64,000 nucleotides of DNA from Chiloscyllium plagiosum (GCF_004010195.1 NC_057719.1:41051318-41115317), one strand, 5' to 3'. Positions 6,168 to 63,917 are shown, counted from the first letter of the stretch. Translations and numbers: made by a program. Notes: generated by a model from the sequence alone, not told the origin.

Positions 6168-6379
6168 AAGTTCAAAATCACACAGCACCAGGTTATCATC
6201 CAACAGGTTTATTTGGAAGTACACTAGCTTTCGGAACATCGCTCCTTCATCAGGTGGTTGATGAAGGAGCGGCGTTCCAAAAGCTGATGTGCTTCCAATT
6301 AAACCTGTTAGACTATAACCTGGTGTTGTGTGATTTTGAACTTTGTACACCCCAGACCAACACCAGCATCTCCAAATCA
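6168..6379. mobile_element. PLE family B fold-back mini-element with TSD
   Basis: Inverted arms centred near 6255; 12-bp TSD TGTTTATTAGCA at 6156-6167 and 6380-6391; a hammerhead motif in each arm. Confidence 0.9.
6225..6253 (-). ncRNA. Minimal type I hammerhead ribozyme motif (family B)
   Basis: Minus strand CTGATGA-A-GGAGC-GAT-GTTCC-GAAA-GCTA; helix I CAC/GTG. Confidence 0.75.
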
Positions 6380-7147
6380 TGTTTATTAGCAGCCTGATTA
6401 CTTTTCAATTGTAAGTAAATCAGTTACAGTTGAAGACCACAGTGCTGTTGAATTATACATTCTGAAACGAACATGAAAACAACTAGATCGCAAAAGTGAA
6501 ATAAGACTGAAAATTTAATTTACTGCTGGAATTTTTGAATATTATTTATGGAAAAGTCAGATAAAAAAGTAGACCAATCAAAAAATGTGATATCTTTGTC
6601 AACATGGAAGGTTTGAAATGACTGTAATCCTTAAGTGCAACCTTGAATATGATGATAAGGCTGACAGTGGTACTCAATTCCTGCAGTAGCATCTCATTTT
6701 AATTTCCAACTGGAAAATTTATCTGACATTGATTCAACTGTTTTTGTTACGGATGTATATGTCAAATTACTGGCACTCTGGTTAAGTAGACAGGCTTCGA
6801 TAATACCTTATCATCCAGGAGCATCAACATCATGTGAAAGAGTTCTCCTGCCATTGTTGTTTTCCTGCAGCTTACAGTGCTTTTTTTTTTTGCAGAATGA
6901 TATTGACCTGTGCAACTGAAAATCATGATCAAATAGATAGCACATGGCCACAGATTTGCTCTCTCTTATGTATTGGCCATATATTCCGAATGCTGTTTTA
7001 AGTCCTTAAATCTTGCCTGGTGGTCATGGAAATATAGTTTTTCCTCTGTTTGAGATACATATTAATGACATGAGTGTTGTGGATTAATTAATGAGTTTAC
7101 CAGTTCTGATATTTGATGAAAAGTTTACCAAAACCTACTGAATTCAT

Positions 7148-7339
7148 CATGATTTGGAGATGCTGGTGTTGGACTGGGGTGTACAAAGTTAAAAATCACA
7201 CACCAGGTTATAGTCCAACAGGTTAAATTGGAAGCACTAGTTTACAGACCGCTGCCACCTGATGAAGGAGCAGCGCTCCGAAAGATGGTGCTTCCAATTA
7301 AACCTGTTGGATGATAACTTAGTGTTGTGTGATTTTTAA
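7148..7339. mobile_element. PLE family B fold-back mini-element with TSD
   Basis: 13-bp TSD CTACTGAATTCAT at 7135-7147 and 7340-7352; plus-strand core CTGATGA-A-GGAGC-AGC-GCTCC-GAAA at 7259-7283 with a mutated stem III. Confidence 0.9.
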
Positions 7340-7804
7340 CTACTGAATTCATATCTCTCTCCTCAAATTCAACTTAGCAGGGATTTCAATACCTTGGTTC
7401 ATGATTAGTTTAAGAGATTAATATTGCACAGTCTGAAATGATGGAGTTTGAATTCTCAGAATGTAGCCGTTTGCCTTTTCAAGCAACCTGTCTTCAAATT
7501 GACAAGGGAGAGAGAAATTCAAAATCTGTGAAATTGGAAGCCAATGCCTTTGGGTATAAAGGGCCTGCAGCAGATTTTGAGTGCACTGCATATGCAAATT
7601 GGGTTCCTAACAGCTGCTGTACCTGCAAATGCCTTTGATGGACACTTCAAATGGCTGTTTTCTAATTTGTACTGCTCATTCTTGGTGGGTGCAAAGAGAG
7701 CAAAAATGACACTGAGATCCCAAATGCGTCATTTGATCCTGAATTACAAATACTGACAATACTCCCACTTGTAACCAGCAGGTTCTCCAGTAGCTGAAAT
7801 CAAA

Positions 7805-8935
7805 ACAACTTGTGTTTATATGATGCAATTAACATAATAAACTATTCCAAGGTGCTTCACAAAAGCATTATGGATCAAAAAGTTTAACAGCAAGCCACAA
7901 AATTAAAGGTAAATTGAAGGAGTGTCTTAAAGGAGGAAAAAGAAGCATAGTGGCATAAAGAGGGAATTCCAGACCTTAGGACCTAGGAAACTGAAAGGAT
8001 GGTCACCAGTGTTGGAGTGTTTAAAACCGGGTGCCCAAATTGGCAGCAGATACTTCAGAGGGTTTATAGGATTAGAGGAGGTTACAGACATAAGGATAGG
8101 TGAGATCATGGAGTGATTTAAAAACAAGGTTGAGAATTTTAAAATTGAGACATTCCTCGAACAAGATCCAATGTAAATCAGTCAGCTTCAGCGTTTAGCT
8201 GGACAGAAGTTGGGGCAGGTGAAGATACAAACAGCAGAGTTTGGAAGATCTCACGTTTTCAGATGTGAGTGAAAACCCAGGTGGTGCTAAAATAATCAAA
8301 CCTGGAGATAAAAATAACACCAATGATGGTTTCAACAGCAGATAAACTGAGGCAGGAGTGAAGTCAGGTTTTATTTTCATGGTGGAAATAGGCAATATCA
8401 GTGATGTGGGGGAAGCTCATCTTGGGATTAAATTTGATGCCAAAGTTGTAACAGATTGGTTTCATTTCCAACTGTTGCCAGCAAGAGAGAAAAAGTTGGT
8501 CGCTGACAAATGGAATTTGGAGCACATACAATGTCTTTAACTTTCCCAATTGAATTGGATGTAAGTTTTACTCATCCAGTCCTGGATGTCAGATAGGCTG
8601 TCAAGTAATGCAGTGACAGTGGAGAAGTTGAACAATGTGATGCCGAGGTAAGGCTGGAAATCATCATCAGATGTGTGGTAACTGATAATGTGCTGTTTAA
8701 TGATTGTGCTGTGGGGCATCATGTAGTGAGATAGGAGGGGGTCAAGAGTAAATCTTTGTGAACTACCAGAAGTGATAGTATGGGTATGGGATAAGAAGAT
8801 TTGGCTGTGATTTGATCATTAAAACTGAAACTTGAGTGAGAGAAGTCCCAACCAGTTGGATGGCAGTGGAGAGACATTGGAGGACAATGCTGTTGTCATG
8901 AGGTAAAAGCTGCAGACAGGTCCAAAAGTTGTAGG
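7805..8935 (-). mobile_element. L2-clade LINE 3' portion, decayed
   Basis: Minus-strand IIKQHIISYHTSDDDFQPYL (degenerate YADD region) and PFSFLGPKVWNSL; L2-type tail at the left end. Confidence 0.8.
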
Positions 8936-10644
8936 TATACAGTTTACTTTTGTCTCAGTTGCATGCAGAGACACATTAACACATTGGAATTTTTATTTTC
9001 TCTATTCATTGACCCTAGTATTGCCACCTTTTCATGCACAAATGCAACAGTCATGCATGAAAATTGCAACCAATATATTTGCATTTTCTGATGATCTTAT
9101 TCCCACTCTCAATATCTGTTTCAGGTGGGTAATCAGCCAGTTAAGTGTCATCATCCATTTAATGTCATATCAGAGGCCTGCTAATACTTATTATATTTTG
9201 AATCATCATTGTAGTAAAAGTAAAGAAAGGATCTAGGATTTCCTTTTACAAGCTTATCATTTAACTGACAGCATAAATCTGTCAGGTGTCAGTGTAATTA
9301 ATTATTGATTATATGTTGAATGATTGCATATCCATTTAAAATGCATCACTTGGCATGATATAAGGTAAATGAAACTTAATGATTAAATAGAAATGAACTT
9401 ATTTGGGAATTATGTTCTGCCTGAGAATTTGTAAGTATTAATCGTTATATTTCAAAATGCAAAATGGGGCATTTTCTACGCTTTGAAAGGATTTAGAAAT
9501 TTAGACATTAGATGGTTATGAGAGCTATTTTTAACAAGACCAGGTAAACACTGACTAGCATTTAAAAAGCATCTTATGTGCTCAAAAGCATCACAAAGCA
9601 CTTCATGTTCAATGAATGATTTTAAAGTCTTATCTAATTGAACATGACAGCAATTTTACAGACAGTATTATCCTATAGGCAGCTGTTAAATGAATCAGCA
9701 GTTAATCGATTTCTGGTAAAGTAGTCAAAGGAGGAATACTGGATCATGCAGCGACAGGACTTCCAGAACTTCTTCAATGGATCTTTAAGAAGTAGACATG
9801 ACTTCAGGTTAAAACCTCCTCTGAAGAAGGAGTGGATATTGTTCTTGAATGACAAGAATTTCCAATAAGAAAATTTCATAACTTAATAAATAAAAATTCT
9901 GCTAACAGTTCTTTAATTTTGCAAGTAATGATTTAAAAATCACATTGTTACTCAGATGACTTTCATTGCTTACACTGTCATCTGCAGGTATGCGTTTTCA
10001 GCTCCTTTATACAGCTTTTTTTCTTTTTTTTCACGTGATGTTTAATTGTTCATGGGATGCTGTCTTCACTGGCAAGGCCAGCATTTGTTGCCCTTCGTTA
10101 ATTGCCATTGAACTGAATGGCTTGCTAGATCATTTCAGAGGGCAGTTGAAAGTCAGCAATATTGATACAATATTGTGTGTTGTTCAGGATGCCTGCAGCT
10201 GGCATTTGGTTCTGTTTAGATCTTCTTTGGGTAGATTTGCTGCCGCCAGCCCTCACTCTAATCTAATCGATAGAGCCTACTGGTAGTAAATGGTAAAGGA
10301 TTAACTGCTATAAGTTTCAGCAGGAGAAACATGCACTGGGGTAACAGGAAGTAATTTATTACTTAATGGTAAGAAAACAGGTTGCATGGGGTTAAAATTG
10401 GTTAGCTATCTGAACACTTGGTAAAAGATGTTTTTATTTCTACTCACTAAATCTATGTTATGTGGCTATGGACTATGCAACTGACTAACCAGGAACAACC
10501 ATCAACCTAACTCCATCTAGAAACAATCATTTCTGTATTGGTGAATGGAGATATTCCAAAGCTTCTAGGTTAACCCTTTCAACTGTTATACAACAATGTG
10601 GACGTTACTGGTCAGACAAACATTTGTTGCCCAACCCCAAGTGA

Positions 10645-11385
10645 AACATAGATTCATAGCATACAGAAGACATCCTTTCGCCCATTGAGTTTGAAATGAC
10701 AAAACTACTCAAAATGTACAATAATGTCACTTGCCAGCACTTGGCCCATAGGCCTTGAATGTTATGACATTTATTGTGCTCATCCAAGTATGTTTTATAG
10801 ATTATGAGGTTCCTGCCTCAAATAGCCTCCTCGGCAGTGCATTCCAGATTCCCACTACAGCCTGGGTGAAATGTGTTTCCTCAAATCCTCTCTAAACCTT
10901 TAATCTTAAAATTATGTCCCCTTGTTATTAACCCTTCAACTAAGAGGAACAGCTGCTTCCTATCCATACTGTTATAATCTATTATAACTCAATCAGGTCA
11001 CCTTTCAGCCTTCTCTGCTCTAAAAAAAAGCCAAGCTAAACTGTTCCATCTCAGGCAACATGTTGGTGAATCTCCTCTGCACCCCCTCCAGTGCAATCCT
11101 TCTAATACAGTCACCAGAACATGCACAGTACTCCAGATATGACCCGACCATTCATTGTGCAGCATTAAGGGTCACTGGACCCAAAACGCTTACTCTGATT
11201 TCTCTCACAGATGCTGCCAGACAAGCTGAGCTTTTCCAGCAATTTCTGTTTTCATTTCACATAACCTCCCTGCTTTAATAATCAAGACTATATTGATAAA
11301 GGCAAGTGTCCCATATGCCTTCTTAAGTACCCTATTGGCTTGTCCTGCTGCCTTCAGGGATCTGAACTTCCTAAGTAAATCAAAT
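10645..11385 (-). mobile_element. CR1 LINE 3' fragment, interrupted by a PLE piece at 11165-11262
   Basis: Minus-strand KAAGQANRVLKKAYGTLAFIN and CR1 3' motifs. Confidence 0.8.
11165..11262 (+). mobile_element. PLE family D terminal-repeat fragment
   Basis: aagggtcactggacccaaaacgc (helix II GGGTC/GACCC, decayed GAAA) followed by cagatgctgccagacaagctgagcttttccagcaatttctg. Confidence 0.7.
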
Positions 11386-12092
11386 TGCCCTGGAGAAGGA
11401 AGGGACAGGTAGTATTGAGGAAATGGGGAGGTTGCAGAAGGACTTGGACCAGGTAGGAAAATGAGTAAAGAGGTGGCAATGGAACACAATGTGGGGAAAG
11501 TGTGAGGTTTTGTACTTTGGCAGGAAGAATAAAGATGTAGACTATTTTCTAAATGGAAAAAGGCTTTGGAAATCTGAATCACAAAGGGATTGGGGAGTCC
11601 TAGTTAAGGATTCTCTCAAGGTTAACATGCAGGTTCACTTGACAGTTAGGAAAGCAAAGGCAATGTTTACATTCATTTCAAGAGGGCAAGAATACAAGAA
11701 TGATCTGAGGATGAAGGGTATGTCATAAGAGGAGTTTTGAGGACTCTGGATCTGTGTTCAATTGAGTTTGGACTGATGAGGGGGGACCTGATTGAAACTT
11801 ACAGAATACTAAGAGGCCTGGATAGAGTGAATGTAGAGAAGATATTTCCACTAGTAAGAGACACTAGGACCTGAGGGCACAGCTTCAGAGTAAAGGGATG
11901 ACCCTTGAAAACTGAGATAAAGAGGAATTTCTTCAGCCAGAGACTGGTTAATCTGTGGAACTCATTGTTGCAGAGGGCTGTAGAAATTAAGTCAGCATGT
12001 TACTTAAGATGGCGATAGACAGGTTCTTGATTAGTAAGGTGATTAAGGATTATGGAGAAAAGGTAGAAGAATTGGGTTGAGAAACGTATCAG

Positions 12093-12745
12093 AGCTGAAA
12101 ATGTGTTGCTGGAACAGCGCAGCAGGTCAGGCAGCATCCAGGGAACAAGAGGATCGACGTTTCGGGCATAAGCCCTTCTTCAGGAATGAGGAAAGTGTGT
12201 CCAGCAGGCTAAGATAAAAGGTAGGGAGGAGGGACTTGGGGGAGGGGCGATAGATGGAAATGCGATAGATGGAAAGAGGTCAAGGTGAGGGTGATAGGTC
12301 AGAGTGGGGTGGGGCGGAGAGCTCAGGAAGAAGATTGCAGGTTAGGAAGGCGGTGCTGAGTTCAAGGGATTTGACTGAGACAAGGTGGGGGGAGGGGAAA
12401 TGAGGAAACTGGTGAAATCCGAGTTCATCCCTTGTGGTTGGAGGGTTCCTAGGCGGAAGATGAGGCGCTCTTCCTCCAACCGTCATGTTGTTGTGGTCTG
12501 GCGATGGAGGAGTCCAAAGACCTGCATATCCTTGGTGGAGTGGGAGAGGGAGTTGAAGTGTTGAGCCACAGGGTGGTTGGGTTGGTTGGTCCGGGTGTCC
12601 CAGAGGTGTTCTCTGAAACGCTCCGCAAGTAGGCGGCCTGTAAACGTCGATTCTCTTGTTCCCTGGATGCTGCCTGACCTGCTGCGCTGTTCCAGCAACA
12701 CATTTTCAGCTCTGATCTCCAGCATCTGCAGACCTCACTTTCTCC
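12093..12745 (-). mobile_element. Penelope-like element family A: GIY-YIG C-terminus, terminal repeat and inverted short repeat, with TSD
   Basis: LLAERFREHLWDTRTNQPNHPVAQHFNSLSHSTKDMQVFGL; inverted repeat at 12640-12745; 16-bp TSD TTGAGAAACGTATCAG at 12077-12092 and 12746-12761. Confidence 0.92.
12156..12183 (-). ncRNA. Minimal hammerhead ribozyme motif (family A)
   Basis: Minus strand CTGAAGA-A-GGGC-TTAT-GCCC-GAAA-CGTC, in the same sense as the GIY-YIG ORF. Confidence 0.8.
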
Positions 12746-18135: not shown

Positions 18136-18204
18136 TGACCTTGCACAAGTAACCATTAAGTATAAGTACAGCTGCATGAGACATCATAACCAATTCTGGT
18201 ACTC

Positions 18205-19099: not shown

Positions 19100-19640
19100 C
19101 CTTCATCACACCCCCTCTTTACCTGCTCCAGTTGTGCAGAACACATCATGTGAGAATTATATGGTTCCCCCTGCCTGGAGAGCACTGCAAGGTCCTTCCC
19201 ATCACTTGCAGACCAGTCCAAGCTGTCGATCCTCATCTTCGGGAAGCCTACCATCTGCTCCACCATGGTCCTGTTTGATAAATTGGCTAAATTGTATCTG
19301 AGGCGAAGGTTGAGTGCGGCAGATGCTGGAGATCAGAGTCAAGAATGTGGTGCTGGAAAAGCACAGCAGGTCAGGCAGCATCCGAGCAGCAGGAAAATCA
19401 ATGTTTTGGGCAAAAGCTCTTCATCAGGAATGATATATTGTATCTGAGCTCCAGCTCCATCAAGGGTTGCATAATGGAGTCATCAGCTTTTTTGCAGAAG
19501 GTAGTCTTTGTCTCTTAGTAACGATCCTTGTAATAAGGCATGTGCCTCCATAAACAAACAAACAATATGATTGTTTTCATCTAAATAGGTATCATGGGAG
19601 CTCCCAGTTTACCTGGCTCAAACTTCAAAGATGTGGCACA
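19100..19640 (-). mobile_element. Harbinger DDE transposase C-terminal remnant
   Basis: Minus-strand translation GSSHDTYL, LLRDKDYLL..LMTPLCNP, RYNLANLSNRTMVEQMVGFPKMRIDSLD, LQCSP..IILT*CVLHN; split by the PLE insert. Confidence 0.8.
19303..19436 (-). mobile_element. PLE family A ribozyme-plus-tail mini-insertion with TSD
   Basis: 12-bp TSD ATTGTATCTGAG at 19291-19302 and 19437-19448; begins a few nt upstream of a CpG-decayed hammerhead core. Confidence 0.85.
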
Positions 19641-19642
19641 AA

Positions 19643-22783: not shown

Positions 22784-22873
22784 TTCCTGAAGAAGGGCCT
22801 GTGCCCGAAACGTCGAATCTCCTGTTCCCTGGATGCTGCCTGACCTGCTGTGCTGTTCCAGCAATAAAGTTTC
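22784..22873 (+). mobile_element. 90-bp PLE family A mini-insertion with TSD
   Basis: 11-bp TSD AGACTTAGGGA at 22773-22783 and 22874-22884. Confidence 0.9.
22787..22814 (+). ncRNA. Minimal hammerhead ribozyme motif (family A), intact
   Basis: CTGAAGA-A-GGGC-CTGT-GCCC-GAAA-CGTC; helix I GATTC(22782-22786)/GAATC(22815-22819). Confidence 0.85.
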
Positions 22874-22880
22874 AGACTTA

Positions 22881-26177: not shown

Positions 26178-26385
26178 ATTTGGAGATGCCGGTGTTGGAC
26201 TGGGGTGTATAAAGTTAAAAATCACACATCACCAGGTTATAGTCCAACAGGTTTAATTGGAAGCACACTAGCTTTCGGAGCGACGCTTCTTCATCACCTG
26301 ATGAAGGAGCGTCGCTCCGAAAGCTAATGTGCTTCCAATTAAACCTGTTGGACTATAACCTGGTGTTGTGTGTTTTTTAACTTTG
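26178..26385. mobile_element. PLE family B fold-back mini-element
   Basis: Inverted arms joined at tcatca/cc/tgatga (~26297); TSD TACACCTACATA 26166-26177 vs TACACTTACATA 26386-26397 (1 mismatch); plus-strand core CTGATGA-A-GGAGC-GTC-GCTCC-GAAA-GCTA at 26298-26326. Confidence 0.9.
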
Positions 26386-26424
26386 TACACTTACATAGGA
26401 AGACATAATGGAAACAGTTGACAG

Positions 26425-35484: not shown

Positions 35485-35685
35485 GTTTAGATCAGAGTTT
35501 AGATCAGAGTGGTGCTGGAAAAGCACAGCAGGTCAGGCAGCATCTGAGGAGCAGGAAAAGCCCTTCCTGATGAAGGGCTTTTGCCCGATTTTCCTGCTCC
35601 TCGGATGCTGCCTGACCTGCTGTGCTTTTCCAGCACCACTCTGATCTAAACTCTGGTTTCCAGCATCTGCAGTCCTCACTTTTGC
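35485..35685. mobile_element. PLE family A fold-back mini-element with TSD
   Basis: 17-bp TSD CTATTCAACCCTTCAGA at 35468-35484 and 35686-35702; arms meet at aaaagcccttc/ctgat/gaagggctttt; the AAACGTC part of the ribozyme is deleted. Confidence 0.9.
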
Positions 35686-36659
35686 CTATTCAACCCTTCA
35701 GACCTATTTGCCATTCTGTATAATATGACAGCAAATTTAACTCTTCATCCTCACCAAAATCAAGTTGGAAAATCAAAGTATTCTGGGGACAGACTGGAAT
35801 GGGAAGAATGAAGGGCATATTCAAAAAGTTATTTTAAAAATATTAGAATTGACTATTGTAAATTAAACAAATTATTTTAACATATGGTAAACTCAGATGG
35901 ATTGCCAATCTTACTATTCAGAATTCTTACATTTTCTTACTCTTCAGAATTCTAAGATGGAGTTATGTTTAAGTATTGGGTTTTAAAACATAGTAAACTC
36001 AGTAGCAGGTTTGTTTAACATCTACACTAGACCCATCTCACTACACTACACACGTGACCATACCCTTTTTTTTACATTTTGCTCTGTGATTTTTATGATT
36101 GCTAATCTCCCTTGCCCACTTACCTTCCTTCCTGTTCCTCCCAACATTTCTCCACTGGATAAAACCTATCACATTTGCACTTCTCAGTTCTGAAGAAGAG
36201 TTATATTGGACAGAAAACCTATTGTGAACTACGATCATCTCTCCACAGATGCTGCCAAACCATTTGAGTTTTTCCAATACTTCCAGTCCTCATTTCATTT
36301 CATATTTCTAGAATATGATAAAATACTAGAATATTGATTTGAGTCAGAAACTATCAGGAACTGCAGATTATGAAACCATCTGTCTTGGTATGGCCTGATT
36401 TCCTCCTCCTCAGCCTGAATCTCCAATTATCCAGTAGCAGCTTCAACCTCCCTTGTGGACATGGTCAGTTTCACCTCCTGCACCATTCCATTCCATCTCG
36501 AGCAGGCATCTTTAAACCTCATCTGCCATAATGTAATCCTGGTGCTGTGGACTCTTGCTGACTTTGTCATAAATGTAACATGAGATTGAGCACATAGATG
36601 GCCCAAAGATCACGCAGCAGGGATTCTTTATCTCACTGGCATCAAGTCATTACAAACCT

Positions 36660-44965: not shown

Positions 44966-45083
44966 TTAGATTAAAAACAAGGACTGCAGATGCCGTAAAC
45001 CAGAGTCTAGATTAAGTGGTGCTGGAAAAGCACAGCAGGTCAGGCAGCATCCGAGGAGCAGGAAAATTGACATTTCGGGCAAA
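44966..45083 (-). mobile_element. PLE family A terminal-repeat fragment
   Basis: gtggtgctggaaaagcacagcaggtcaggcagcatccgaggagcaggaaaattgacatttcgggcaaa; truncated inside hammerhead helix II. Confidence 0.85.
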
Positions 45084-46838
45084 GGAGGGAAGGAGCTGTG
45101 TGAAAAATATACGCTGGTTTCAGGATATTCTGATTCAGAACTAATAGAAGGCAAGAATTTTGTTCTTCAAATATCTGATTTCGAGTCAACTTCAGGATGA
45201 AATTCAAATTCAGGATGAATTTATAGAGGCCAACTTGCCAGTGCTCTTATATCAAGACAAAGATTTTGCTGAGTCCTGGATATTCTACAGCATTTCCAAA
45301 AAGATGCACATAATGGTTCCAACCCATTTCTGATGGATCTTATTTTTGGCAGTAAGGAATAGAGACAGGACATGGAACCATAGAGTCATACACTACGGAT
45401 ATAGACCCTTCAATTTAACTCGAGTGTGCTGACCAGAAATCTCAACCTGACCTAGTCCCACTTGCCACCATTTAGCCCATTTCCCTCTAAACCCTTCCTA
45501 TTCATATACCCATCCAGGTGCCTTTTAAATGGTGTAACTGTACCTGACTCCACCACTTACTCTGGCAGCGTATTCCATACATGCACCACTCTCTCCGTGA
45601 AAAAGTTATCCTTCAGGGATTTTTAAAAATATTTCCCCTCTCACCTTAAACCTATGTCCTCTCATTCTGGACTCCCCACCCTAGCAAAAAGACCTTGGCT
45701 ATTTACTCTATCCATCCCCTTCATGGTTTTATAAATTTCTATAAAGTCATCCCTCAGCCTCTGATGCTTCAGGGAAGAAGCCCCAGCCTATTCACCCTCT
45801 CCCTATAGCTCAAACCCTATAATCCCAGCAACATCCTCATATATCTTACCTGTGCCCTTTCAGTTTAACCAACATCCTTCCAATGGAAGGGTGACCAGAA
45901 TTGAATGCAATACTGTAAAAGTGGCCTCACCAATGTCCTGTAAAGCTGCAATATACTCTACCAACTCCTATAATCAGTGTTCCCACCAATGAAGTCAAGC
46001 ATGTCAAATGCCTTCTTCACCACCTTGTCGACCTATGACTCCCCTTTCAAGGAACCGCGCCCTGAGGTCTCTTTGTTTGGCAACGCTCTGCAGGGCCCTA
46101 TCGTATTAGTGCTGCCCTGATTGGCCTTACCGAAATGCAACACCTCACATTTATTTAAATTAAACTCCATCTGCCAATTCTTAGCCCTTTGGCCCATCTG
46201 ATCAACATCCTCTTGTACTCAGGGATAACCTTCTTCACTGTCCACTACACTAACTATTTTGGGTGTCATCAGCAAACTTATTAACCATGCCTCTTATATT
46301 CATATCCAACTCGTTTATATAAATGTCGAAAAGCTGTAGATCCAGTACTGATCTTTGTGGCACACCACTGGCCACAGACTGACAGTTCGAAAAGCAGCCC
46401 TCTGTCAAGGCCCTCTGTCTCCCTTCAAGCCAATTTTGTATTCAATTGATTAGCTCCCCTGCATCTTATGTGATATAATCCTACTAACTAGTCTACCATG
46501 CCTTGTCGAATGCTTCGCTGAAATCCATTTGGACAATGTCTATCACTCTGCCTTCATCAATCTTCTTAGTCACCTCTTGAAAAAACTTAATCAGGTTAGT
46601 GAGACATGATTTCCCATGTACAAAGCCTTGTTGACTATCCCTAATCAGTCCTTGCCTTTCCAAATGCATGTAAATCCTATCCCTCAGAATCCCCTCAAAC
46701 AACTTACCCATCGTTGACAAGGGTTCATTGGTCTATAGTTGCCTGACTTTTCCTTACAGCCTTTCTTACATAATGGCACCACATTAGTCACCCTTCAGTC
46801 TTCTGACACCTCACCCATGGTTGTCGCTGATACAAATA

Positions 46839-47057
46839 GGAGAAAGTGAGGTCTGCAGATGCTGGAGATCAGAGCCGGAGATGTGTTGCTGGAAAAGCGC
46901 AGCAGGTCAGGCAGCATCCAGGGAACAGGAGAATCGACGTTTCGGGCATAAGCCCTTCTTCAGGAATGAAGAAGGGCTTATGCCTGAAACGTCGATTCTC
47001 TTGTTCCCTGGATGCTGCCTGACCTGCTGCGCTTTTCCAGCAACACATCTCCGGCGA
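46839..47057. mobile_element. PLE family A fold-back mini-element with TSD
   Basis: 89-bp arms at 46874-46962 and 46967-47055, 4-nt loop GGAA; TSD TGATACAAATA at 46828-46838 and 47058-47068. Confidence 0.95.
46936..46963 (-). ncRNA. Minimal hammerhead ribozyme motif (family A)
   Basis: Minus strand CTGAAGA-A-GGGC-TTAT-GCCC-GAAA-CGTC. Confidence 0.8.
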
Positions 47058-47199
47058 TGATACAAATATGTCAGCAAGGAGTTCAAGAATCTCTTCCCTA
47101 GGTTTCCACAATGTTCTGGGAAACAGCTGATCTGGTCCTGGGGGTTTATCCATCCCCCATCTGTAATATGAACACTGTTCAAGATATCACTATTTAGAG

Positions 47200-50327: not shown

Positions 50328-50489
50328 ATGATTTGGAGATGCCGGTGTTGGACTGGGGTTTTGCAAAGTTAAAAATCACACAAAAATCAGGTTATCCACC
50401 TGATAAAGGAGCAGCACCCCTGGAGTAGTGAAAGATAGTGTTTCCAATTAAACCTGTTGGACTATAACCTGGTGCTGTGTGATTTTTAA
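50328..50489. mobile_element. PLE family B fold-back mini-element, deleted and decayed
   Basis: atgatttggagatgccggtgttggactgggg...ccaattaaacctgttggactataacctgg; imperfect flanking repeat ctggtagtt/ctggtaagtt. Confidence 0.8.
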
Positions 50490-51911
50490 CTGGTAAGTTT
50501 ACTGTGTGGTTTCAGGTGTCTGTCTGCAAGGACTGTCTGCCTGAGAGTTGGTAGCACTTAATATGGATCTTGAGCAACATAAAAATCAATTGTTCATTCC
50601 ACATATGTGGATCTTACTTCATCAAGACTGTCAATTTGAACTTTATAATAGTATTAGCCCAGGTAAAGTTGTTATGAAGAGCACCTGTGATATTTCTTTT
50701 AATTTTTGTTTTATTTTCCAAGTATACAACCACTCTTGTGACAATTTTAAGAATTTGCATTACATTACATACACTCTAAAAACTATTTGTGGCCTTAGCT
50801 TGCAACACACATACTGTAAATGGCAAGGAAATGTTCAGACTCTCAATCAGTGTGGTTCTCTGCTTTGCACTACTTTATAACATGGGAGTGCCATGGCCTT
50901 CAATTGTTGCATTAAAAAATATCTCAATCTGATGTATAGTTGAATGTTGATAATTTAAAACAATCATTACAGAAGGCTCAGCTTCTCAGCTCTAGCTGCT
51001 TATTCCTGCTTCAATATTTTGTTCCGCAACATGACCCTTTAAATCTATGACTGCTTTGGGTATATTTAAATGATTGCCCCCTGCTGAAATATTGACTATC
51101 ACACTAATTGCATGTTGTATTTGTACCAGAGTCAACAAAGCAGTTGCATTTGCATTTTCATTGTTAGGAATTCCATTACTCCAGGAATCAGCGTTTAGAG
51201 GAAATCCAGTGCTCTGGAGTGCCAGTCTGTTCATATACTCATTTCATAATTCAAAGGCAATTTTGATTTAAAAATTAATTCCATCCATTACAGTTTGTAG
51301 CCTATTATTTTCTGGTGCATGCATGCTGAATGAAAATTATTGTTGAATTCTGCATATAATTACTCATCTTTTAATTTCTCTTCAGGATGTGGGTGATGCT
51401 GAAAAGATTCCATTTATTGTCTGTTCCTTGTCCTGGGAAGGTGGTGATGGGTCTTCTTGAGCAAACACAATGACTGAATTGGTTATACTCCAACAATGGT
51501 GTTAGGCAGAGGTTGTCAGAATTTATTGACAGTGTGTTCTTTATGCTAATCACTAGAGTACTGAAGACTAAATCCCCAATGTTAGTTGTTTCCAGCATCA
51601 TCAACACTGCTATTTTTATACACATTTGCAAATCCATCTACATAGCAGACAAAATCTTCCTCTCTAGTCCTTTATTGAAAGGCTTGTAGACAATGAGTAA
51701 TTCACTTCAGTGCCAACACTCGCAATGATGAATTTATGCATTATCCTTGCCACTGATACACTCAGTTTGTTGATTCCACAACAATAATAAGGCCCATGTC
51801 CAGCCACCACCAGCTCCACAAAAGATGCAAAAAAGAGGATCAAGTGATCAGTGAGAATACAATAAAGTTGGGACTGGGGCTTCAACCTGCATGCCACAAT
51901 TTAAATACAAC

Positions 51912-52220
51912 GAGGTAAAATCAATGACTGCAGATGCTGGAAACCAGATTCTGGATTAGTGGTGCTGGAAGAGCACAGCAGTTCAGGCAGCATCCAACGA
52001 GCAGCGAAATCGACGTTTCGGGCAAAAGCCCCTCATCAGGAATAAAGGCAGTGAGCCTGAAGCGTGGAGAGATAAGCTAGGGGAAGGTGGGAGTGGGGAG
52101 AGAGTAGCATAGAGAAGAGCTTCAGGGCAGAGGAAATGACCTGGGAGTTGCAGTGGGAGAGGGACTCCCTGAGATTCTTGTAGAGAGAGGAGGAAAACTT
52201 CTTCAAGGCAGGCATCCTTG
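51912..52220 (-). mobile_element. PLE family A variant; terminal repeat with intact hammerhead at 52012-52039
   Basis: Minus strand CTGATGA-G-GGGC-TTTT-GCCC-GAAA-CGTC; nearly identical to 55443-55610. Confidence 0.85.
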
Positions 52221-53865: not shown

Positions 53866-54182
53866 TGTCAAGATTAGCGTGGTGCTGGAAAAGCACAGCA
53901 GGTCAGGCAACATCAGCGGCGGCACGGTGGCACAGTGGTTAGCACTGCTGCCTCACAGCGCCAGAGACCTTAGCGTGGTGCTGGAAAAGCACAGCAGGTC
54001 AGGCAACATCAGAGGAGTAGGAAAATCGACGTTTCAGGCAGAAGTGCTTCATCAGGATGAAAGGCTCCTGCCCGGAACATCGATTTTCCTGCTCCTCGGA
54101 TGCTGCCTGACCTGCTGTGCTTTTCCAGCACCACTCTAATCTTGACTCTAATCACCACCATCAGCAGTCCTCACTTTCGCCT
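53866..54182. mobile_element. PLE family A fold-back element containing a captured SINE head (53917-53969)
   Basis: Inverted arms meeting at ttcatcaggatgaa (~54055); 43-bp exact direct repeat at 53874-53916 and 53970-54012. Confidence 0.9.
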
Positions 54183-54367
54183 GGCAGTGCTATCTAGTGC
54201 CAATATCCTTCTCTGTTGCTTGATACTCAACCTTCATTGATTTGATAGCACGTAGTATACGTTCAGCTAAGCCATTTGAGCATAGCTAGTGGGGTGATAA
54301 GATGCTACGGGTCACTCCCAGTTTAGTACACAGCTTGAAACTTTGCCATTGTATTTCAGTCCATTTT

Positions 54368-55080: not shown

Positions 55081-55442
55081 TAAGTATTGAAAACATTCAT
55101 CTTCAGCAGTTTGCAATTGCAACTATCCTCATTGGCTCTGGCCACATTGAATCAGACTAACGGTGAGAATGCCTTCAACTTTGTATTCAATAGCATCAAC
55201 ATGTACATCAAGCAGAATACCTTGGTCTTTGTGTGAGCTTAAAAAACTGCTCAGTGTGTCAGCTGTAATTGTCCTGGAAGCTAGCTTATATTCCACTTCT
55301 GAAACATATTCTTGTAGATTGATGAATGATTCTATTGCTTGACATATGGTTGTTTCCATCACAATAGGTGCCTTTGAATCTCAAAAGATGTGACTGTACT
55401 GAGCACATGGATGCAGCCAAGGATACAAACAGAGAGAAGAGA

Positions 55443-56664
55443 GATTCTGGGATTAGTGGTGTTGGAAGAGCACAGCAGTTCAGGCAGCATCCAAGGAGCA
55501 GCGAAATCGACGTTTCAGGCAAAGGCCCTTCATCAGGAATAAAGGCAGAGAGTCTGAAGCGTGGAGAGATAAGCTAGAGGAGGGGGGGGGTGGGGAGAAG
55601 TAGCATAGAGTACAATAGGTGAGTGGGGGAGGGGATGAAGGTGATAGGTTAGGGAGGAGGGTGGAGTGGATANNNNNNNNNNNNNNNNNNNNNNNNNNNN
55701 NNNNNNNNNNNNNNNNNNNNNNNNNNNNNNNNNNNNNNNNNNNNNNNNNNNNNNNNNNNNNNNNNNNNNNNNNNNNNNNNNNNNNNNNNNNNNNNNNNNN
55801 NNNNNNNNNNNNNNNNNNNNNNNNNNNNNNNNNNNNNNNNNNNNNNNNNNNNNNNNNNNNNNNNNNNNNNNNNNNNNNNNNNNNNNNNNNNNNNNNNNNN
55901 NNNNNNNNNNNNNNNNNNNNNNNNNNNNNNNNNNNNNNNNNNNNNNNNNNNNNNNNNNNNNNNNNNNNNNNNNNNNNNNNNNNNNNNNNNNNNNNNNNNN
56001 NNNNNNNNNNNNNNNNNNNNNNNNNNNNNNNNNNNNNNNNNNNNNNNNNNNNNNNNNNNNNNNNNNNNNNNNNNNNNNNNNNNNNNNNNNNNNNNNNNNN
56101 NNNNNNNNNNNNNNNNNNNNNNNNNNNNNNNNNNNNNNNNNNNNNNNNNNNNNNNNNNNNNNNNNNNNNNNNNNNNNNNNNNNNNNNNNNNNNNNNNNNN
56201 NNNNNNNNNNNNNNNNNNNNNNNNNNNNNNNNNNNNNNNNNNNNNNNNNNNNNNNNNNNNNNNNNNNNNNNNNNNNNNNNNNNNNNNNNNNNNNNNNNNN
56301 NNNNNNNNNNNNNNNNNNNNNNNNNNNNNNNNNNNNNNNNNNNNNNNNNNNNNNNNNNNNNNNNNNNNNNNNNNNNNNNNNNNNNNNNNNNNNNNNNNNN
56401 NNNNNNNNNNNNNNNNNNNNNNNNNNNNNNNNNNNNNNNNNNNNNNNNNNNNNNNNNNNNNNNNNNNNNNNNNNNNNNNNNNNNNNNNNNNNNNNNNNNN
56501 NNNNNNNNNNNNNNNNNNNNGAGGTCCAGGAGGGGGAGGGAGGTGTCAGAGATGGTCCAGGTAAATTTAAGGTCAGGGTGGAATGTGTTGGTGAAGTTGA
56601 TGAATTGCTCAACCTTCTCGCGGGAGCACGAGGTGGCGCCAATGCAGTCATCAATGTAGCGGAG
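55443..56664 (-). mobile_element. PLE family A, RT to terminal repeat, spanning an assembly gap; hammerhead at 55509-55536
   Basis: LRYIDDCIGATSCSREKVEQFINFTNTFHPDLKFTWTISDTSLPLLDL (PLE RT YIDD..H..LKFT...LPFLD); minus strand CTGATGA-A-GGGC-CTTT-GCCT-GAAA-CGTC. Confidence 0.9.
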
Positions 56665-61410: not shown

Positions 61411-62199
61411 TAATTCAGATAAATGTGAGGTGCTGCATTTTGGGAAAGCAAATCTTAACAGGACTTAGACACTTAATGGTAAGGTCCTAGGGAGTGTTGC
61501 TGAACAAAGAAACCTTGGAATGCAGGTTCATAGCTCCTTGAAAGTGGAGTCACAGGTAGATAGGATAGTGAAGAAGGTGTTTGGTATGCTTTCCTTTATT
61601 GGTCAGAGTATTGAATACAGGAGTTGGGAGGTCATGTTGTGGCTGTACAGGACATTGGTTAGGCCACTGTTGGAATATTGTGTGCAATACTGGTCTCCTT
61701 CCTATCGGAAAGTTGTTGTGAAACTTGAAAGGGTTCATAAAAGATTTACAAGGATGTTGCCGGGGTTGGAGGATTTAAGTAAAGGGAGAGGCTGAACAGG
61801 CTGGGGCTGTTTTCCCTGGAGCGTCAGAGGCTGAGGGGTGACCTTATAGAGGTTTACAAAATTATGAGGGGCATGGATAGGATAAATAGACTTTTCCCTG
61901 GGTTGGGGAGTCCAGAACTAGAGGGCATAGGTTTGGGGTGAGAGGGGAAAGATATAAAAGGGACCTAAGGGGCATCTTCACACAGAGGGTGTACGAAATG
62001 AGCTGCCAGAGGAAGTGGTAGTGGCTGGTACAATTGCAACATTTAAAAGGTATTTGGATGGGTATATGAATAGGAAGGATTTGGAGGGATATGGGTTGTG
62101 TGCTGGCAGGTGGGAATAGATTAGGTTGGGATACCTGGTCGGTATGGACGGGTTGGACTGAAGTGTCTGTTTCTGTGCTGTACATATCTGTGACTCTAA
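61411..62199 (+). mobile_element. CR1 (HER1-type) copy nested in the PLE GIY-YIG motif
   Basis: ORF 61520..61795 LVRPLLEYCVQYWSPSYRK; host aaaactaat...gttatatacaaaat is interrupted; CTAAT at both junctions. Confidence 0.95.
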
Positions 62200-62621
62200 T
62201 GTTATATACAAAATACTAGTGCAAGGCCTGTAACAAAAACTACATTGGACAAACAGACAGAAAACTAGCCACCAGAACATCAACTAGCCACAAAATGACA
62301 TGACCCTCTCTCATTACTATCCTTACATACAGATGAGGAAGGACACCACTTCGACTGGGCCAACACATCCATTCTCGGACAAGCCAAACAGAGACATACA
62401 CGAGAATTCCTAGAAGCATGGCATTCCAACCAGAACTCTATCAACAAACACATCGAGTTCGACCCCATCTACCACACCCTGAGAAAAAGAATGGGAAATG
62501 AGATCACCACAGGAAATGACATCACCACAGGAAATGACATCACCAGCCCAAAGAAACCAACCATATAAATAGAAAGCAGGAATTATCAACAGTGCTTCGC
62601 CTGGAGGCCCACTGAAGATGT

Positions 62622-62708
62622 GTGGTTGGATGCTGCCTGAACTGCTGTGCTCTTCCAGCACCACTGATCCAGAATCTGGTTTCCAGCGTCTGCAGTCATT
62701 GTTTTTAC
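62622..62708 (+). mobile_element. PLE family A 3' tail inserted in the family C hammerhead
   Basis: 14-bp TSD CCCACTGAAGATGT at 62608-62621 and 62709-62722. Confidence 0.9.
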
Positions 62709-63029
62709 CCCACTGAAGATGTTACCTGCTAAGGTGATAAAACGTCTGGAAATGAACCTCTCAGCTCAGTGAGCAAAGCTACACCCAGAACCTCAATCTG
62801 AGCTACAAATCTTCTCACAACTCACATGTAAGACTCTAAGTAATCCATATGTTTAGAAGGTATGAAGGTTAGTGCACATTCAAAATGGTGAGCAATGTGG
62901 GATCTGAAGATTTAATTTAGCAACACTAACTGCAGAGAGACGAATATGTTGCCAATTCAGAGAACCTCAAGGAAAGCAGATACTGCTGATTGCTCAGGAC
63001 AATGCACCTAACAAAATGCCTCAGAGCAA

Positions 63030-63917
63030 CAATCCGCACTACACACTGTCTTGCTTGCACGGGCATACACACACTCACGCAGACCCTCTCTCATACATAA
63101 CTCTTTCTCATGTGCTCACACATGCACATCCCCCATATTCACATCCACACACGCACCCTCTCACAGACTTATACCTCTTTGCACTCACACAGATACACAT
63201 ATACATACGCTCTCACAGATACTCACACACACCCACTTGCACACATAAGTTTGTGGGGTGAATTTGCACTTGCAGAATTATATTTTACTTTGCGCAAAAA
63301 CTGCATGAATCCATGTAAGATTCTGTAAATCTGTTTTTTAGATTAGAATCAGTCTGACCATTGTGGCACAGACAGCCTCACACAGGGAATTTCACACCTT
63401 CAATATATTATCTAGGCCAACATGACTCCAATTGTTAAAGTTCACTTGAGAATGTAACTTTAAAAAATGTTTTGCGATTTGCATATGAAAGAACTGAAAC
63501 CAACATGGTCATTCTAAAAGATGAAAGACTTAACAAACAATCCAGGTCTTTTTCAATATATAATTTCAGTTACATCACACTGTAAACTTTTGCTATAAAT
63601 TCTGTGTTTTACAATCTTATTCTCCACAACCACCTGATGAAGGAGCAGCACTCCGAAAGCTAGTGCTTCCAAATAAAACTGTTAGGCTATAACCTGGTGT
63701 GTATGCATGGTGTGGGGGGGGGGGGGGGGGTGGCGCTTATGTGGGTCTGTGAGAGAATGGGTGTTTGTGTGTGTCTGTGAGTGTAAAGGGGTTTAAGTCT
63801 GTGAGAGGGTGTGTGTGGGAGCCTATGTGTGAGTGTATGAGAGAGGGTCTGTGTGAGTGTGTGTCTGTTGCTGTGTGTGTATGTGTGTATTATGCAATGG
63901 TGTCACCTGTAGTGTGA
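63030..63917 (+). mobile_element. PLE family B long 3' region (CA-rich UTR and terminal repeat) followed by an inverted copy of the CA-rich part
   Basis: 63630-63700 matches the family B hairpin arms; 63770-63880 is the reverse complement of ~63060-63200. Confidence 0.75.
63634..63662 (+). ncRNA. Minimal hammerhead ribozyme motif (family B), intact
   Basis: CTGATGA-A-GGAG-CAGCA-CTCC-GAAA-GCTA; helix I CAC/GTG. Confidence 0.8.

What the first reader, a model, noticed from the sequence alone, without database searches (positions are those of the whole stretch)
6225..63662. Four Penelope-like families carry covarying minimal hammerhead ribozymes apparently built for dimeric cleavage
Seen: seven or eight intact cores (6225-, 12156-, 22787+, 26298+, 46936-, 52012-, 55509-, 63634+; 26298 has a helix I mismatch) and about ten decayed ones. 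All read CUGANGA + 1 extra nt, helix II, GAAA. Helix II is GGGC/GCCC (A), GGAGC/GCTCC (B), GTTACC/GGTGAT (C), GGGTC/GACCC (D). Helix I is TC/GA to GATTC/GAATC (A), CAC/GTG (B), CCA/TGG (C), AGTT/AACT (D). Stem III shrinks to a self-complementary tetramer, ACGT (A, C, D; GUC or GUU site) or AGCT (B; CUA site), so the sequence changes while the palindrome is kept. Established: PLE terminal repeats carry minimal type I hammerheads with palindromic stem III that cleave as dimers, and an extra nucleotide after A9 is tolerated in a viroid hammerhead. Inference: roughly one intact core per 8-9 kb here implies a very large genomic pool of ribozyme halves, with ACGT and AGCT classes possibly forming orthogonal pairing groups. 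I cannot tell whether these shark families are already described.
Basis: partly seen in the sequence, partly recalled or inferred. Interest (0 to 1): 0.82.

Follow-up and report, generated by a model that had tools for sequence, protein, structure and literature searches.

The report
Penelope-element hammerhead stumps, shark-like genome
These are short, mostly dead-end copies of Penelope-like jumping genes, each carrying the tiny hammerhead self-cutting RNA motif that such elements are already known to carry; the genome holds over a hundred thousand of them, and the motif is predicted, not shown, to cut only when two copies pair.

Summary
All eight cited cores are at the stated places and read CUGANGA + 1 nt + helix II + GAAA + a 4-nt palindrome.

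Only families A and B have intact cores in the window. C and D occur there as decayed copies, but all four are real genome-wide:
- A: 88,166 exact cores
- B: 17,348
- C: 5,097
- D: 400
- reversed-pattern controls: 0

The helices differ between families by changes on both sides of the pair.

The carriers bear the Penelope-like element (PLE) signature:
- variable 5' truncation
- 8-17 bp target duplications
- head-to-head inverted copies
- a 34-38 bp "tail" at only one end

Family C runs straight out of a reverse transcriptase + GIY-YIG frame. B is a roughly 550-nt non-coding element.

All of this is in print (Cervera & de la Peña 2014; Arkhipova 2013; Craig 2021; Frangieh 2024). This scan had also noted it on other DNA of the same genome. 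It is therefore a new member of a known kind.

Two things go beyond the literature I read. The copy number is about ten times the published counts. About three quarters of A insertions end within a few nucleotides of the ribozyme's 5' edge, and not at the predicted cleavage site.

Cleavage, dimerisation and the proposed pool of ribozyme halves remain untested.

The parts
6168..6381 (.). Family B head-to-head insertion between target duplications TTTATTAGCA (6158-6167 and 6382-6391). One arm ends at the long (tailed) site, the other at the short site.
6225..6253 (-). B hammerhead core: CUGAUGA-A-GGAGC-GAU-GUUCC-GAAAGCUA. Helix II has one G.U pair; predicted site is CUA.
7148..7339 (.). Family B head-to-head insertion between target duplications CTACTGAATTCAT (7135-7147 and 7340-7352). 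The + arm core at 7259-7287 has a mutated stem III (GAAAGAUG).
11140..11250 (+). Decayed family D copy. Helix II GGGTC/GACCC is kept, both core boxes are lost, and the tail is homologous to the A tail.
   Evidence: D family defined
12088..12745 (.). One family A head-to-head insertion between target duplications TTGAGAAACGT (12077-12087 and 12746-12756). The arms are unequal. The - arm carries the intact core 12156-12183 and more than 70 nt upstream of it. The + arm starts near +17 and carries the long tail.
19311..19440 (-). Family A single-arm stump with a decayed core, between target duplications CAGATACAAT. It starts about 9 nt 5' of CTGA and ends at the long site.
22784..22875 (+). Family A (CUGU-loop subfamily) 92-nt single-arm stump between target duplications ACTTAGGGA (22775-22783 and 22876-22884). 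The intact core is 22787-22814. The element starts 3 nt before CUGA and ends at the short site.
26178..26391 (.). Family B head-to-head insertion with a 2-nt apex. The + arm core 26298-26326 is intact apart from a helix I mismatch. One arm ends at the long site and the other at the short site. The flanking duplication is about TACATA.
35509..35687 (.). Decayed family A head-to-head insertion with an internal deletion.
36185..36280 (+). Decayed family D copy. The CUGAAGA box and helix I AGTT are kept; helix II is lost.
44972..45085 (-). Family A copy truncated inside the hammerhead (starts near +14), ending at the long site.
46839..47058 (.). Family A 220-nt head-to-head insertion between target duplications GATACAAATA (46829-46838 and 47059-47068). 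The - arm core 46936-46963 is intact and that arm carries the long tail. The + arm core 46966-46993 has one change and that arm ends at the short site. As RNA it folds into a hairpin of -187 kcal/mol.
50330..50491 (.). Decayed family B head-to-head insertion.
51913..52110 (-). Family A2 copy with at least 70 nt 5' of the core, an intact core at 52012-52039, and the long end.
53975..54190 (.). Decayed family A head-to-head insertion next to a tRNA-type SINE.
55442..55672 (-). Family A2 copy with core 55509-55536 (one G.U pair in helix II) and the short end. Its 5' side runs into the N run 55673-56520.
62616..62709 (+). Family A2 stump without a hammerhead (starts near +41). It is inserted into the CUGAAGA box of a C element, with target duplication CCACTGAAGATGT.
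62710..62800 (+). Decayed family C copy: CCA-CUGAAGA-U-GUUACC-UGCUAA-GGUGAU-AAAACGUC-UGG, with G12 changed to A.
   Evidence: C family defined
63300..63700 (+). Longer family B copy with at least 330 nt 5' of the core. The core is 63634-63662 with a 4-bp helix II. The 3' part is cut off after about +66.

Best explanation
The cited motifs are the minimal type I hammerhead motifs of four Penelope-like retroelement families (A, B, C, D), and most copies in the window are short end-fragments ('stumps') of those elements that are likely inert as ribozymes.

Shown here:
- In all families the motif lies 65-100 nt upstream of two alternative 3' ends that are 34-38 nt apart. This matches the two internal start sites of reverse transcription and the 'tail' described for PLEs.
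- Insertions have 8-17 bp target duplications.
- About half are head-to-head pairs with the tail on one arm only.
- About three quarters of A insertions end within about -11 to +25 of the CUGA box.
- Family C is the 3' end of an element that encodes reverse transcriptase plus a GIY-YIG-like endonuclease.
- B is a roughly 550-nt non-coding passenger.

Inferred:
- The element's protein would bind its RNA just downstream of the hammerhead, start copying at either of the two sites, and run to the RNA's 5' end, which would lie at the ribozyme's 5' edge.
- Priming from both nicked DNA strands would give the mirror-image pairs.
- The ribozyme itself is predicted to need a second copy (helix III = ACGU:ACGU or AGCU:AGCU), and probably the element's protein, to cut.
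- The DNA record suggests that templates were mostly uncut at this site.
For: Motif and counts:
- Motif excess in the window: 17 matches against 3.82 expected.
- Exact genome counts with reversed-pattern controls of 0: A 44,050+44,116; B 8,739+8,609; D 206+194; C 2,566+2,531.

Structure conserved through change:
- Helix II: GGGC/GCCC, GGAGC/GCUCC, GUUACC/GGURAY, GGGUC/GACCC.
- Helix I: UUC/GAA, CAC/GUG, CCA/UGG, AGUU/AACU.
- 15.2-16.2: C-G or G-C.
- Predicted sites: GUC, CUA, GUU.

Retroelement signature:
- Constant 3' ends of two classes and variable 5' ends in 20 B and 20 A loci.
- Target duplications read directly.
- Of 30 tail-anchored A copies, 16 are head-to-head, 6 are single arms starting 1-11 nt before CUGA, 7 are longer and 1 is unreadable.
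- Of 15 head-to-head copies with both ends readable, 13 are long/short, 2 are long/+62, and none is long/long or short/short (read by eye).

Protein evidence:
- L059 has a 259-aa frame upstream of a C core. It hits 13 of 975 longer candidates, which carry RVT_1 and PF26215.
- It aligns to residues 482-627 of P0013 (E 3e-18). That stretch overlaps the Pfam GIY-YIG domain of P0013 at 566-652.
- L109 has one 466-aa frame with RVT_1 (41.2 bits against a cut-off of 29.6). It runs into a decayed C core and tail.

Literature read: the min-HHR features, the inverted 5'-truncated copy, the tail at one end, two adjacent reverse-transcription start sites, and both DNA strands cleaved and extended.
Against: - No cleavage assay or end-specific RNA data exist here.
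- Rfam finds no hammerhead.
- Pfam finds nothing on the L059 frame itself. GIY-YIG in L109 scores 17 bits, below the 22.6 cut-off.
- No coding partner was found for A, B or D. The A2 upstream frame has no significant match to P0013, and four same-strand A pairs held no element body.
- The 5'-end and tail counts come from 30 loci on one contig read by eye, and 7 of them are the same insertions as in the first sample.
- RNA reads cover the repeat on both strands without any pile-up of ends. This fits passive read-through and gives no support for processing.
Confidence: 0.9

Rival explanations
1. The short A and B units are non-LTR retrozymes in the strict sense. That is, tandem repeats whose transcripts self-cleave to unit length, circularise, and are copied by rolling-circle reverse transcription.
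For: B is non-coding and about 550 nt long. One A2 tandem with 776-nt spacing was seen (L065). A 2026 preprint argues that vertebrate retrozymes derive from PLE pLTRs.
Against: - Tandem copies are rare. Only 2 of the first 100 A hits have a same-strand neighbour within 1 kb, while 8 sit in tight opposite-strand pairs.
- The insertions seen are single units or head-to-head pairs with target duplications.
- None of the 30 tail-anchored copies starts at the predicted cleavage site.
Confidence: 0.06
2. The palindromic units are foldback or MITE-type DNA transposons, or hairpin (miRNA-like) genes, and the hammerhead boxes in them are incidental.
For: The copies are near-perfect hairpins of -187 and -99 kcal/mol. 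There are sub-threshold Rfam miRNA-type matches at 26253-26342 (51.7 bits against a gathering score of 81) and 35530-35619.
Against: - The outer ends are not inverted repeats of each other; one arm is 34-38 nt longer.
- Target duplications vary from 8 to 17 bp.
- The same sequence occurs as single arms, and as the 3' end of longer copies including a frame encoding reverse transcriptase plus endonuclease.
- Every loop-II subfamily occurs in all forms. The mirror half is therefore made at insertion.
Confidence: 0.02
3. The core boxes are chance matches in an abundant repeat, with no RNA structure behind them.
For: Six or seven of the 17 window matches do look like chance. Rfam is silent.
Against: Four families with unrelated helix sequences all keep the boxes, the spacing, the extra nucleotide, the pairing of helices I and II, and a 4-nt palindrome. 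There are 111,011 exact matches and 0 for the reversed patterns.
Confidence: 0.01

Closest known systems
Minimal hammerheads (min-HHR) in the pseudo-LTRs of metazoan Penelope-like elements (Cervera & de la Peña 2014, PMC4209133; text parts 1-2 read)
   Same: - CUGANGA and GAAA boxes
[quoted passage not shown]
- G10.1-C11.1
- no helix III hairpin, but a palindromic 15.2-16.2 pair
- a short helix I
- several families per genome that differ by compensatory changes
- mostly solitary motifs from truncated elements
- pairs on opposite strands
   Different: - Copy number: at least 111,011 strict cores here, against about 2,000-9,000 per genome in that paper.
- Opposite-strand pairs here are mostly only 2-30 nt apart at the motif's 5' edge, against 100-700 bp there.
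- Cartilaginous fishes are not named in the text I read. Its supplements were not opened.
Poseidon PLE of Anolis carolinensis, PAc (Frangieh et al. 2024, PMC11167929; main text read)
   Same: - The hammerhead sits at the pLTR-ORF junction, with the ATG of CUGAUGA opening a frame (family C: open through the tail, read from the sequences printed).
- There are two alternative 3' ends 30-40 nt apart downstream of the motif (the 'tail').
- The insertion structures fit priming on both DNA strands.
- The templates appear not to have been cut at the ribozyme.
   Different: - There is no biochemistry here.
- The start sites lie about 90 and 125-130 nt after CUGA in A and B. In PAc they lie 111-118 nt into the ORF.
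- A1 lacks the ATG (CUGAAGA), and A2 and B hit a stop soon after it.
PLE insertion architecture: partial tandems, adjacent inverted 5'-truncated copy, and tail at one end (Arkhipova et al. 2013, PMC3846280; Craig et al. 2021, PMC8557442; passages read)
   Same: Inverted copies joined head to head, often with a small palindrome at the joint. A 31-40 bp tail on only one of the inverted repeats. Short target duplications of variable length.
   Different: Here the great majority are stumps of 90-220 nt with no element body, in very large numbers. Partial tandems were rarely seen.
Non-LTR retrozymes of animals (Cervera & de la Peña 2020, PMC7229834, search listing only; Li, Clavereau & Pollet 2026 preprint, results section read)
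   Same: Non-coding, hammerhead-bearing passengers thought to be mobilised by PLEs. Family B fits this description.
   Different: Retrozymes are defined by tandem arrays and circular RNAs. Arrays are rare here, and circles were not tested.

Membership tests
Hammerhead ribozyme, minimal type I (min-HHR of PLEs) | Core boxes C3-U4-G5-A6-N7-G8-A9 and G12-A13-A14 in the right order and spacing | tested here: met
   All eight cited cores. Genome families A-D were defined by exact patterns with reversed controls of 0.
Hammerhead ribozyme, minimal type I (min-HHR of PLEs) | Helix II base-paired, closed by G10.1-C11.1, with an unpaired nucleotide after A9 | tested here: met
   Helix II is 4-6 bp in all four families, with an extra A (A, B, D) or U (C). 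C often has G10.1.U11.1 in place of G-C.
Hammerhead ribozyme, minimal type I (min-HHR of PLEs) | A15.1-U16.1 with a palindromic 15.2-16.2 pair and H17 (not G) at the cleavage site | tested here: met
   ACGU-C (A, C), ACGU-U (D) and AGCU-A (B).
Hammerhead ribozyme, minimal type I (min-HHR of PLEs) | Helix I formed by the flanks | tested here: inconclusive
   Helix I is 3-4 bp in B, C, D and the A CUGU subfamily, but only 2 bp plus a mismatch in the main A subfamilies. In stumps the 5' strand is cut down to 1-4 nt and is partly supplied by target DNA.
Hammerhead ribozyme, minimal type I (min-HHR of PLEs) | Self-cleavage 3' of H17, as dimers | not testable with these tools
   RNAcofold predicts dimers 4-8 kcal/mol below two monomers, but not the hammerhead dimer fold. 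RNA reads show no ends at the site, in a library unsuited to the question.
Rfam Hammerhead_1 (RF00163) and the other Rfam hammerhead models | Score at or above the gathering threshold | tested here: not met
   No hammerhead match at the gathering threshold or at E<=10 in the window. The accession number RF00163 is recalled. No call returned it.
Penelope-like elements (EN+) | A single ORF with reverse transcriptase followed by a GIY-YIG endonuclease | tested here: met
   Family C only. The L109 466-aa frame has RVT_1 at 41.2 bits and GIY-YIG at 17 bits, below cut-off. The L059 frame aligns across the GIY-YIG domain of P0013, E 3e-18. A, B and D: none found.
Penelope-like elements (EN+) | 5'-truncated insertions with an adjacent inverted 5'-truncated copy | tested here: met
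   16 of 30 tail-anchored A copies. About 8 of 25 HHR-anchored B copies. Window copies at 6168, 7148, 12088, 26178 and 46839.
Penelope-like elements (EN+) | [quoted passage not shown] | tested here: met
   Two 3'-end classes 34-38 nt apart in A and B (about 45 nt in the one C head-to-head copy read, L061). 13 of 15 head-to-head A copies are long/short and none is long/long or short/short.
Penelope-like elements (EN+) | Partial tandem giving direct pseudo-LTRs | tested here: inconclusive
   Only one tandem was seen (L065, 776-nt spacing, with an N run inside). No full-length element was recovered. Stretches where the reverse transcriptase should lie read N in L108.
Non-LTR retrozymes | Tandem arrays of hammerhead-bearing units that give circular RNAs | tested here: not met
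   Only 2 of the first 100 A hits have a same-strand neighbour within 1 kb. Circular RNAs were not tested.

The most novel reading that the evidence does not exclude
The hammerhead's 5' edge is the 5' end of the element's RNA. Most of the >100,000 copies are therefore not truncations. They are complete copies of the 90-135 nt between the transcript start and the 5'-proximal pair of reverse-transcription start sites on ordinary unit-length mRNAs.

The strictly one-tailed mirror pairs arise when the two nicked DNA strands are each extended from one of the two adjacent start sites on the same RNA.

On this reading the ribozyme sits in the first 30 nt of the mRNA, so cutting would remove the capped leader. 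The DNA record shows that the copied RNAs had not been cut. The palindromic stumps would also be a genome-wide source of hairpin RNA against the element's own recognition region.
Probability: 0.3. Interest if true: 0.55.

Novelty: new member of a known kind. Interest (0 to 1): 0.3.

Why it matters
This genome may hold one of the largest sets of hammerhead motifs counted in any genome: at least 111,011 strict cores. The highest published figures I read are about 9,000 (Xenopus) and 14,255 (axolotl).

The set also serves as a large fossil record of Penelope-element integration. The two 3'-end classes, the one-tailed mirror pairs and the sharp 5' boundary are what the 2024 in vitro work on an Anolis element would predict, so they could be tested at scale here.

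The record bears on the open question of what the ribozyme is for. The copied RNAs spanned the cleavage site intact.

For genome annotation the practical point is smaller. These 90-220 nt units and their hairpins should be masked as PLE stumps, not called as SINEs, MITEs or microRNA precursors.

Tried and rejected
- Rfam, at the gathering threshold and at E<=10: no hammerhead. The only notable hits were sub-threshold miRNA-type matches on the palindromes.
- A fuzzy-regex scan timed out and was replaced by BLAST.
- Pfam on 64 window frames of 90 aa or more gave only two weak RVT_1 fragments (37710-38039+, 47167-47442+). I did not show these to be PLE.
- A genome search with Pfam GIY-YIG gave one marginal hit and was uninformative.
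- Pfam found nothing on the L059, L056 and L046 frames.
- The A2 upstream frame has no significant match to P0013.
- Four same-strand A pairs were fetched to look for an autonomous A element; none was found.
- Three loci with long PLE frames were fetched to see a full-length C element. All were 5'-truncated or interrupted by N runs.
- RNA: no RNA holder was listed by the index.
- RNAcofold dimers are more stable than two monomers, but they do not adopt the hammerhead dimer fold, so the result is not informative.
- MAFFT misaligned the four families. No count of structure pairs was made, and the pair table was read by hand.
- L021, where the reverse-complement arm of an A copy abuts a B core, has no target duplication. 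It could not be used to tell two-template priming from separate insertions.
- Lünse et al. 2017 is not held in the library. It is cited only through the review PMC6765202.
- Searches for shark-specific reports found none. 'hammerhead ribozyme' + Penelope + shark gave one review, in which 'shark' refers to the shape of the fold. Penelope + shark + transposable elements + genome listed 14 papers, which I did not open.

Full report

The loose descriptor CTGANGAN-N{6,20}-GAAA matches 17 times in the window. Dinucleotide-preserving shuffles give 3.82 on average, with a largest value of 8 in 100 shuffles.

Ten matches fall into two repeat families:
- Family A reads (A)UUC-CUGA[A/U]GA-A-GGGC-NNNN-GCCC-GAA-ACGU-C|GAUUC. 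Copies are at 12160-, 22787+, 46940-, 52016-, 55513-, plus a decayed one at 54032-.
- Family B reads CAC-CUGAUGA-A-GGAGC-NNN-GCUCC-GAA-AGCU-A|GUG. Copies are at 6229-, 7259+, 26298+ and 63634+.

Five fit strict family patterns. Three carry one change that keeps pairing through G.U or shortens helix II.

Families C and D occur in the window only as decayed copies (62713+, about 11169+, 36190+).

Rfam reports no hammerhead at the gathering threshold or at E<=10. This is expected, because the motif has no helix III hairpin.

**2. Genome scale**

The window is G000:C10:41051318-41115317, in a 3.56-Gb assembly. Exact-pattern counts, forward + reverse:

| Family | Count |
|---|---|
| A | 44,050 + 44,116 |
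| B | 8,739 + 8,609 |
| C | 2,566 + 2,531 |
| D | 206 + 194 |

The same patterns read backwards gave 0 in every case. Together this is 111,011 strict cores, or one per 32 kb, so the window is about four times denser than average. A 20-nt word of the A tail occurs 165,276 times.

**3. Covariation**

I read the pairs from real copies of the four families.

| Feature | A | B | C | D |
|---|---|---|---|---|
| Helix II | GGGC/GCCC | GGAGC/GCUCC | GUUACC/GGURAY | GGGUC/GACCC |
| Helix I | UUC/GAA (AUUC/GAAU in the CUGU-loop subfamily) | CAC/GUG | CCA/UGG | AGUU/AACU |
| 15.2-16.2 | C-G | G-C | C-G | C-G |
| Site | GUC | CUA | GUC | GUU |
| Extra nt after A9 | A | A | U | A |

Counting from the core, helix II pair 2 has two pair types, pair 3 has three, and pair 4 has four. 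All are standard pairs and most differ on both sides. Because 15.2-16.2 is C-G or G-C, the tetramer stays self-complementary.

MAFFT could not align the four families in register, so this table is my reading and not a count of structure pairs result.

The 5-bp helix I at 22787 owes its outer G and A to the target. The insertion is 22784-22875, between two copies of ACTTAGGGA.

**4. What carries the motif**

Homology between copies starts only 1-11 nt upstream of CUGA in many cases. It always continues downstream, across the predicted cleavage site.

I sampled the first 20 B and first 20 A genome hits, each with 500 nt either side. The hammerhead strand is the sense strand of a retroelement with fixed 3' ends and variable 5' ends. 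There are two 3'-end classes in each family:

| Family | Short end | Long end |
|---|---|---|
| A | about +95 (...CACATTTTCAGCT) | 34 nt further (...CCTCACTTTCTCC) |
| B | about +88 | about +125 |

In the one C head-to-head copy read (L061) the long arm runs about 45 nt past the short end.

Target duplications of 8-17 bp flank the insertions.

Family B reaches at most about 550 nt and has no long frame.

Family C follows directly on a coding frame:
- L059 has a 259-aa open frame with the motif ...IYKI...YVGQTGRKLATRIHEH.
- Its relatives among longer proteins (13 of 975 candidates) carry RVT_1 and PF26215. The best is an uncharacterised bamboo-shark protein at 50% identity.
- It aligns to residues 482-627 of P0013 at E 3e-18. 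In P0013, Pfam places RVT_1 at 224-396 and GIY-YIG at 566-652.
- In L109 a single 466-aa frame has RVT_1 (41.2 bits) and a sub-threshold GIY-YIG match. It runs into a decayed C core and the long tail.

The ATG inside CUGAUGA opens a frame through the C tail, as I read it from the sequences printed. This is the arrangement described for the Anolis element.

I found no coding partner for A, B or D. D's tail is homologous to A's.

**5. Insertion architecture**

To avoid selecting for an intact core, I took the first 30 plus-strand hits of the A tail word and read them by eye:
- 16 are head-to-head pairs.
- 6 are single arms that begin 1-11 nt before CUGA.
- 7 reach at least 25 nt further upstream.
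- 1 runs into N.

Seven of these 30 are the same insertions as in the first sample.

In the 16 pairs the inner arm ends lie between about -10 and +33. Of the 15 pairs whose outer ends could both be read, 13 have one long and one short end, and 2 have a long end and an end near +62. None is long/long or short/short.

Among the 12 single and longer copies whose 3' end I classed, I read 7 as short and about 5 as long. Independent choice would therefore give about 48% mixed pairs.

The window shows the same pattern:
- 46839-47058: long/short, target duplication GATACAAATA.
- 6168-6381, 7148-7339 and 26178-26391: B family, all long/short.
- 12088-12745: one insertion with very unequal arms, between copies of TTGAGAAACGT.

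No single arm of the 30 begins at the predicted cleavage site (+29). Three inner arm ends lie within 3 nt of it.

**6. Comparison with what is known**

Everything in sections 1-5 except the numbers is already described:
- Cervera & de la Peña 2014 (read) define the min-HHR. They list the nucleotide between 9 and 10.1, G10.1-C11.1, the palindromic 15.2-16.2, several covarying families per genome, mostly solitary motifs from truncated elements, and pairs on opposite strands. They found only weak cleavage, and only in dimer or trimer constructs.
- Arkhipova 2013 and Craig 2021 (passages) describe the inverted 5'-truncated copy, palindromes at the joint, and a 30-40 bp tail on one end only.
- Frangieh 2024 (main text) shows that an Anolis PLE starts reverse transcription at two adjacent internal sites which bracket the tail. 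The enzyme cleaves and extends both DNA strands. The hammerhead needs the protein to cut. Hammerhead mutants insert normally, and no RNA-seq reads end at the cleavage site.
- A 2026 preprint derives vertebrate retrozymes from PLE pLTRs. It sampled one cartilaginous fish.

This scan had already noted the same families and the palindromic stumps on other pieces of this genome.

**7. Mechanism, and what is inferred**

Shown: the motif, its families, the element ends, the target duplications, the mirror pairs, and the C coding frame.

Inferred from the fit with the Anolis biochemistry:
- The protein binds the RNA just downstream of the hammerhead.
- It starts at one of two sites and copies to the RNA's 5' end.
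- The mirror pairs arise because both nicked strands are extended.

The strict one-tail rule suggests that the two cDNAs start at the two different sites. This is perhaps because they are on one RNA, which would also explain why both arms usually stop at the same place. Self-priming of one cDNA, as proposed by Arkhipova 2013, is not excluded. The unequal arms at 12088-12745 fit either model.

The sharp 5' boundary at the ribozyme edge is best explained as the RNA's 5' end. PLE transcripts are reported to start inside the pLTR (review PMC6765202, passage). I could not test this.

Every copy that spans GUC|N was copied from RNA that was uncut there. This agrees with the in vitro result that uncut RNA is the main substrate.

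**8. The 'pool of ribozyme halves'**

- Stumps have lost most of the 5' strand of helix I.
- In mirror pairs the two motifs lie on opposite strands, and a transcript of either strand folds into a near-perfect hairpin. The predicted energies are -187 kcal/mol for the 222-nt A copy and -99 kcal/mol for 173 nt of a B copy.
- Same-strand neighbours within 1 kb are rare: 2 of the first 100 A hits.

Raw reads of a poly(A) single-cell RNA run of the same species label cover only the repeat (22783-22879). They lie in both orientations at similar depth, 99% run on into unlike flanks, and there is no pile-up of ends. This looks like read-through of many copies and says nothing about cleavage. A second run gave no reads.

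ACGU and AGCU cannot pair with each other, so A and B would not form mixed dimers. That follows from the base-pairing rules alone.

**9. Verdict**

The kind is already known, so this is a new member of it. It is notable for its copy number and for a very clean record of PLE integration. Interest is 0.3.

Noticed in passing
window 62613-62722: An A2 stump without a hammerhead (starts near +41) is inserted inside the CUGAAGA box of a family C hammerhead. The 13-bp target duplication CCACTGAAGATGT is repeated on both sides, so this is one PLE family landing in the ribozyme of another.
   Followed up: partly
window 55673-56520 and 41727-42243; L007, L015, L025, L026, L091, L108: Runs of N lie directly upstream of several hammerhead copies. 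In L108 they lie where the PLE reverse transcriptase should be. Either way they prevented recovery of a full-length element.
   Followed up: no
window 26253-26342 and 35530-35619: Sub-threshold Rfam microRNA-precursor matches (MIR845_1 at 51.7 bits against a gathering score of 81; mir-2007 at 34.4 against 100). These are the palindromic PLE stumps. Such hairpins could be miscalled as miRNA genes.
   Followed up: partly
L021 (G000:C1:4662037-4663065), minus strand: The reverse-complement arm of an A2 copy abuts a family B hammerhead exactly at the apex, giving a mixed head-to-head pair. No target duplication was found, so it may be two separate events.
   Followed up: partly
window 53879-53975; also L007, L039: A tRNA-type SINE head (GGCACGGTGGCACAGTGGTTAGCACTGCTGCC...) sits next to PLE stumps.
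   Followed up: no
window 37710-38039 (+), 47167-47442 (+); L046-L049: Weak RVT_1 fragments in the window. The fetched loci hold many frames of an abundant LINE-type reverse transcriptase (...NYRPVSLTSVVGK...). It is unrelated to the PLE frames.
   Followed up: no
window 18243-20188: An array of about 26-nt tandem units (…TGTTGGTGATCCTA…) next to the decayed A copy at 19311-19440.
   Followed up: no
runs X2-X14: Contigs from runs labelled as three other organisms (coded B, C, D) hold the A-family part of the stretch at 90-99% likeness (only X4, organism C, was laid). The family is therefore shared beyond this species label.
   Followed up: partly
L066 and L081 (A copies, 'ctcctc' subfamily): In two head-to-head insertions the untailed arm ends near +62 (…GGATGCTGCCT) instead of at the usual short site. 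This hints at a third start site in one subfamily.
   Followed up: no
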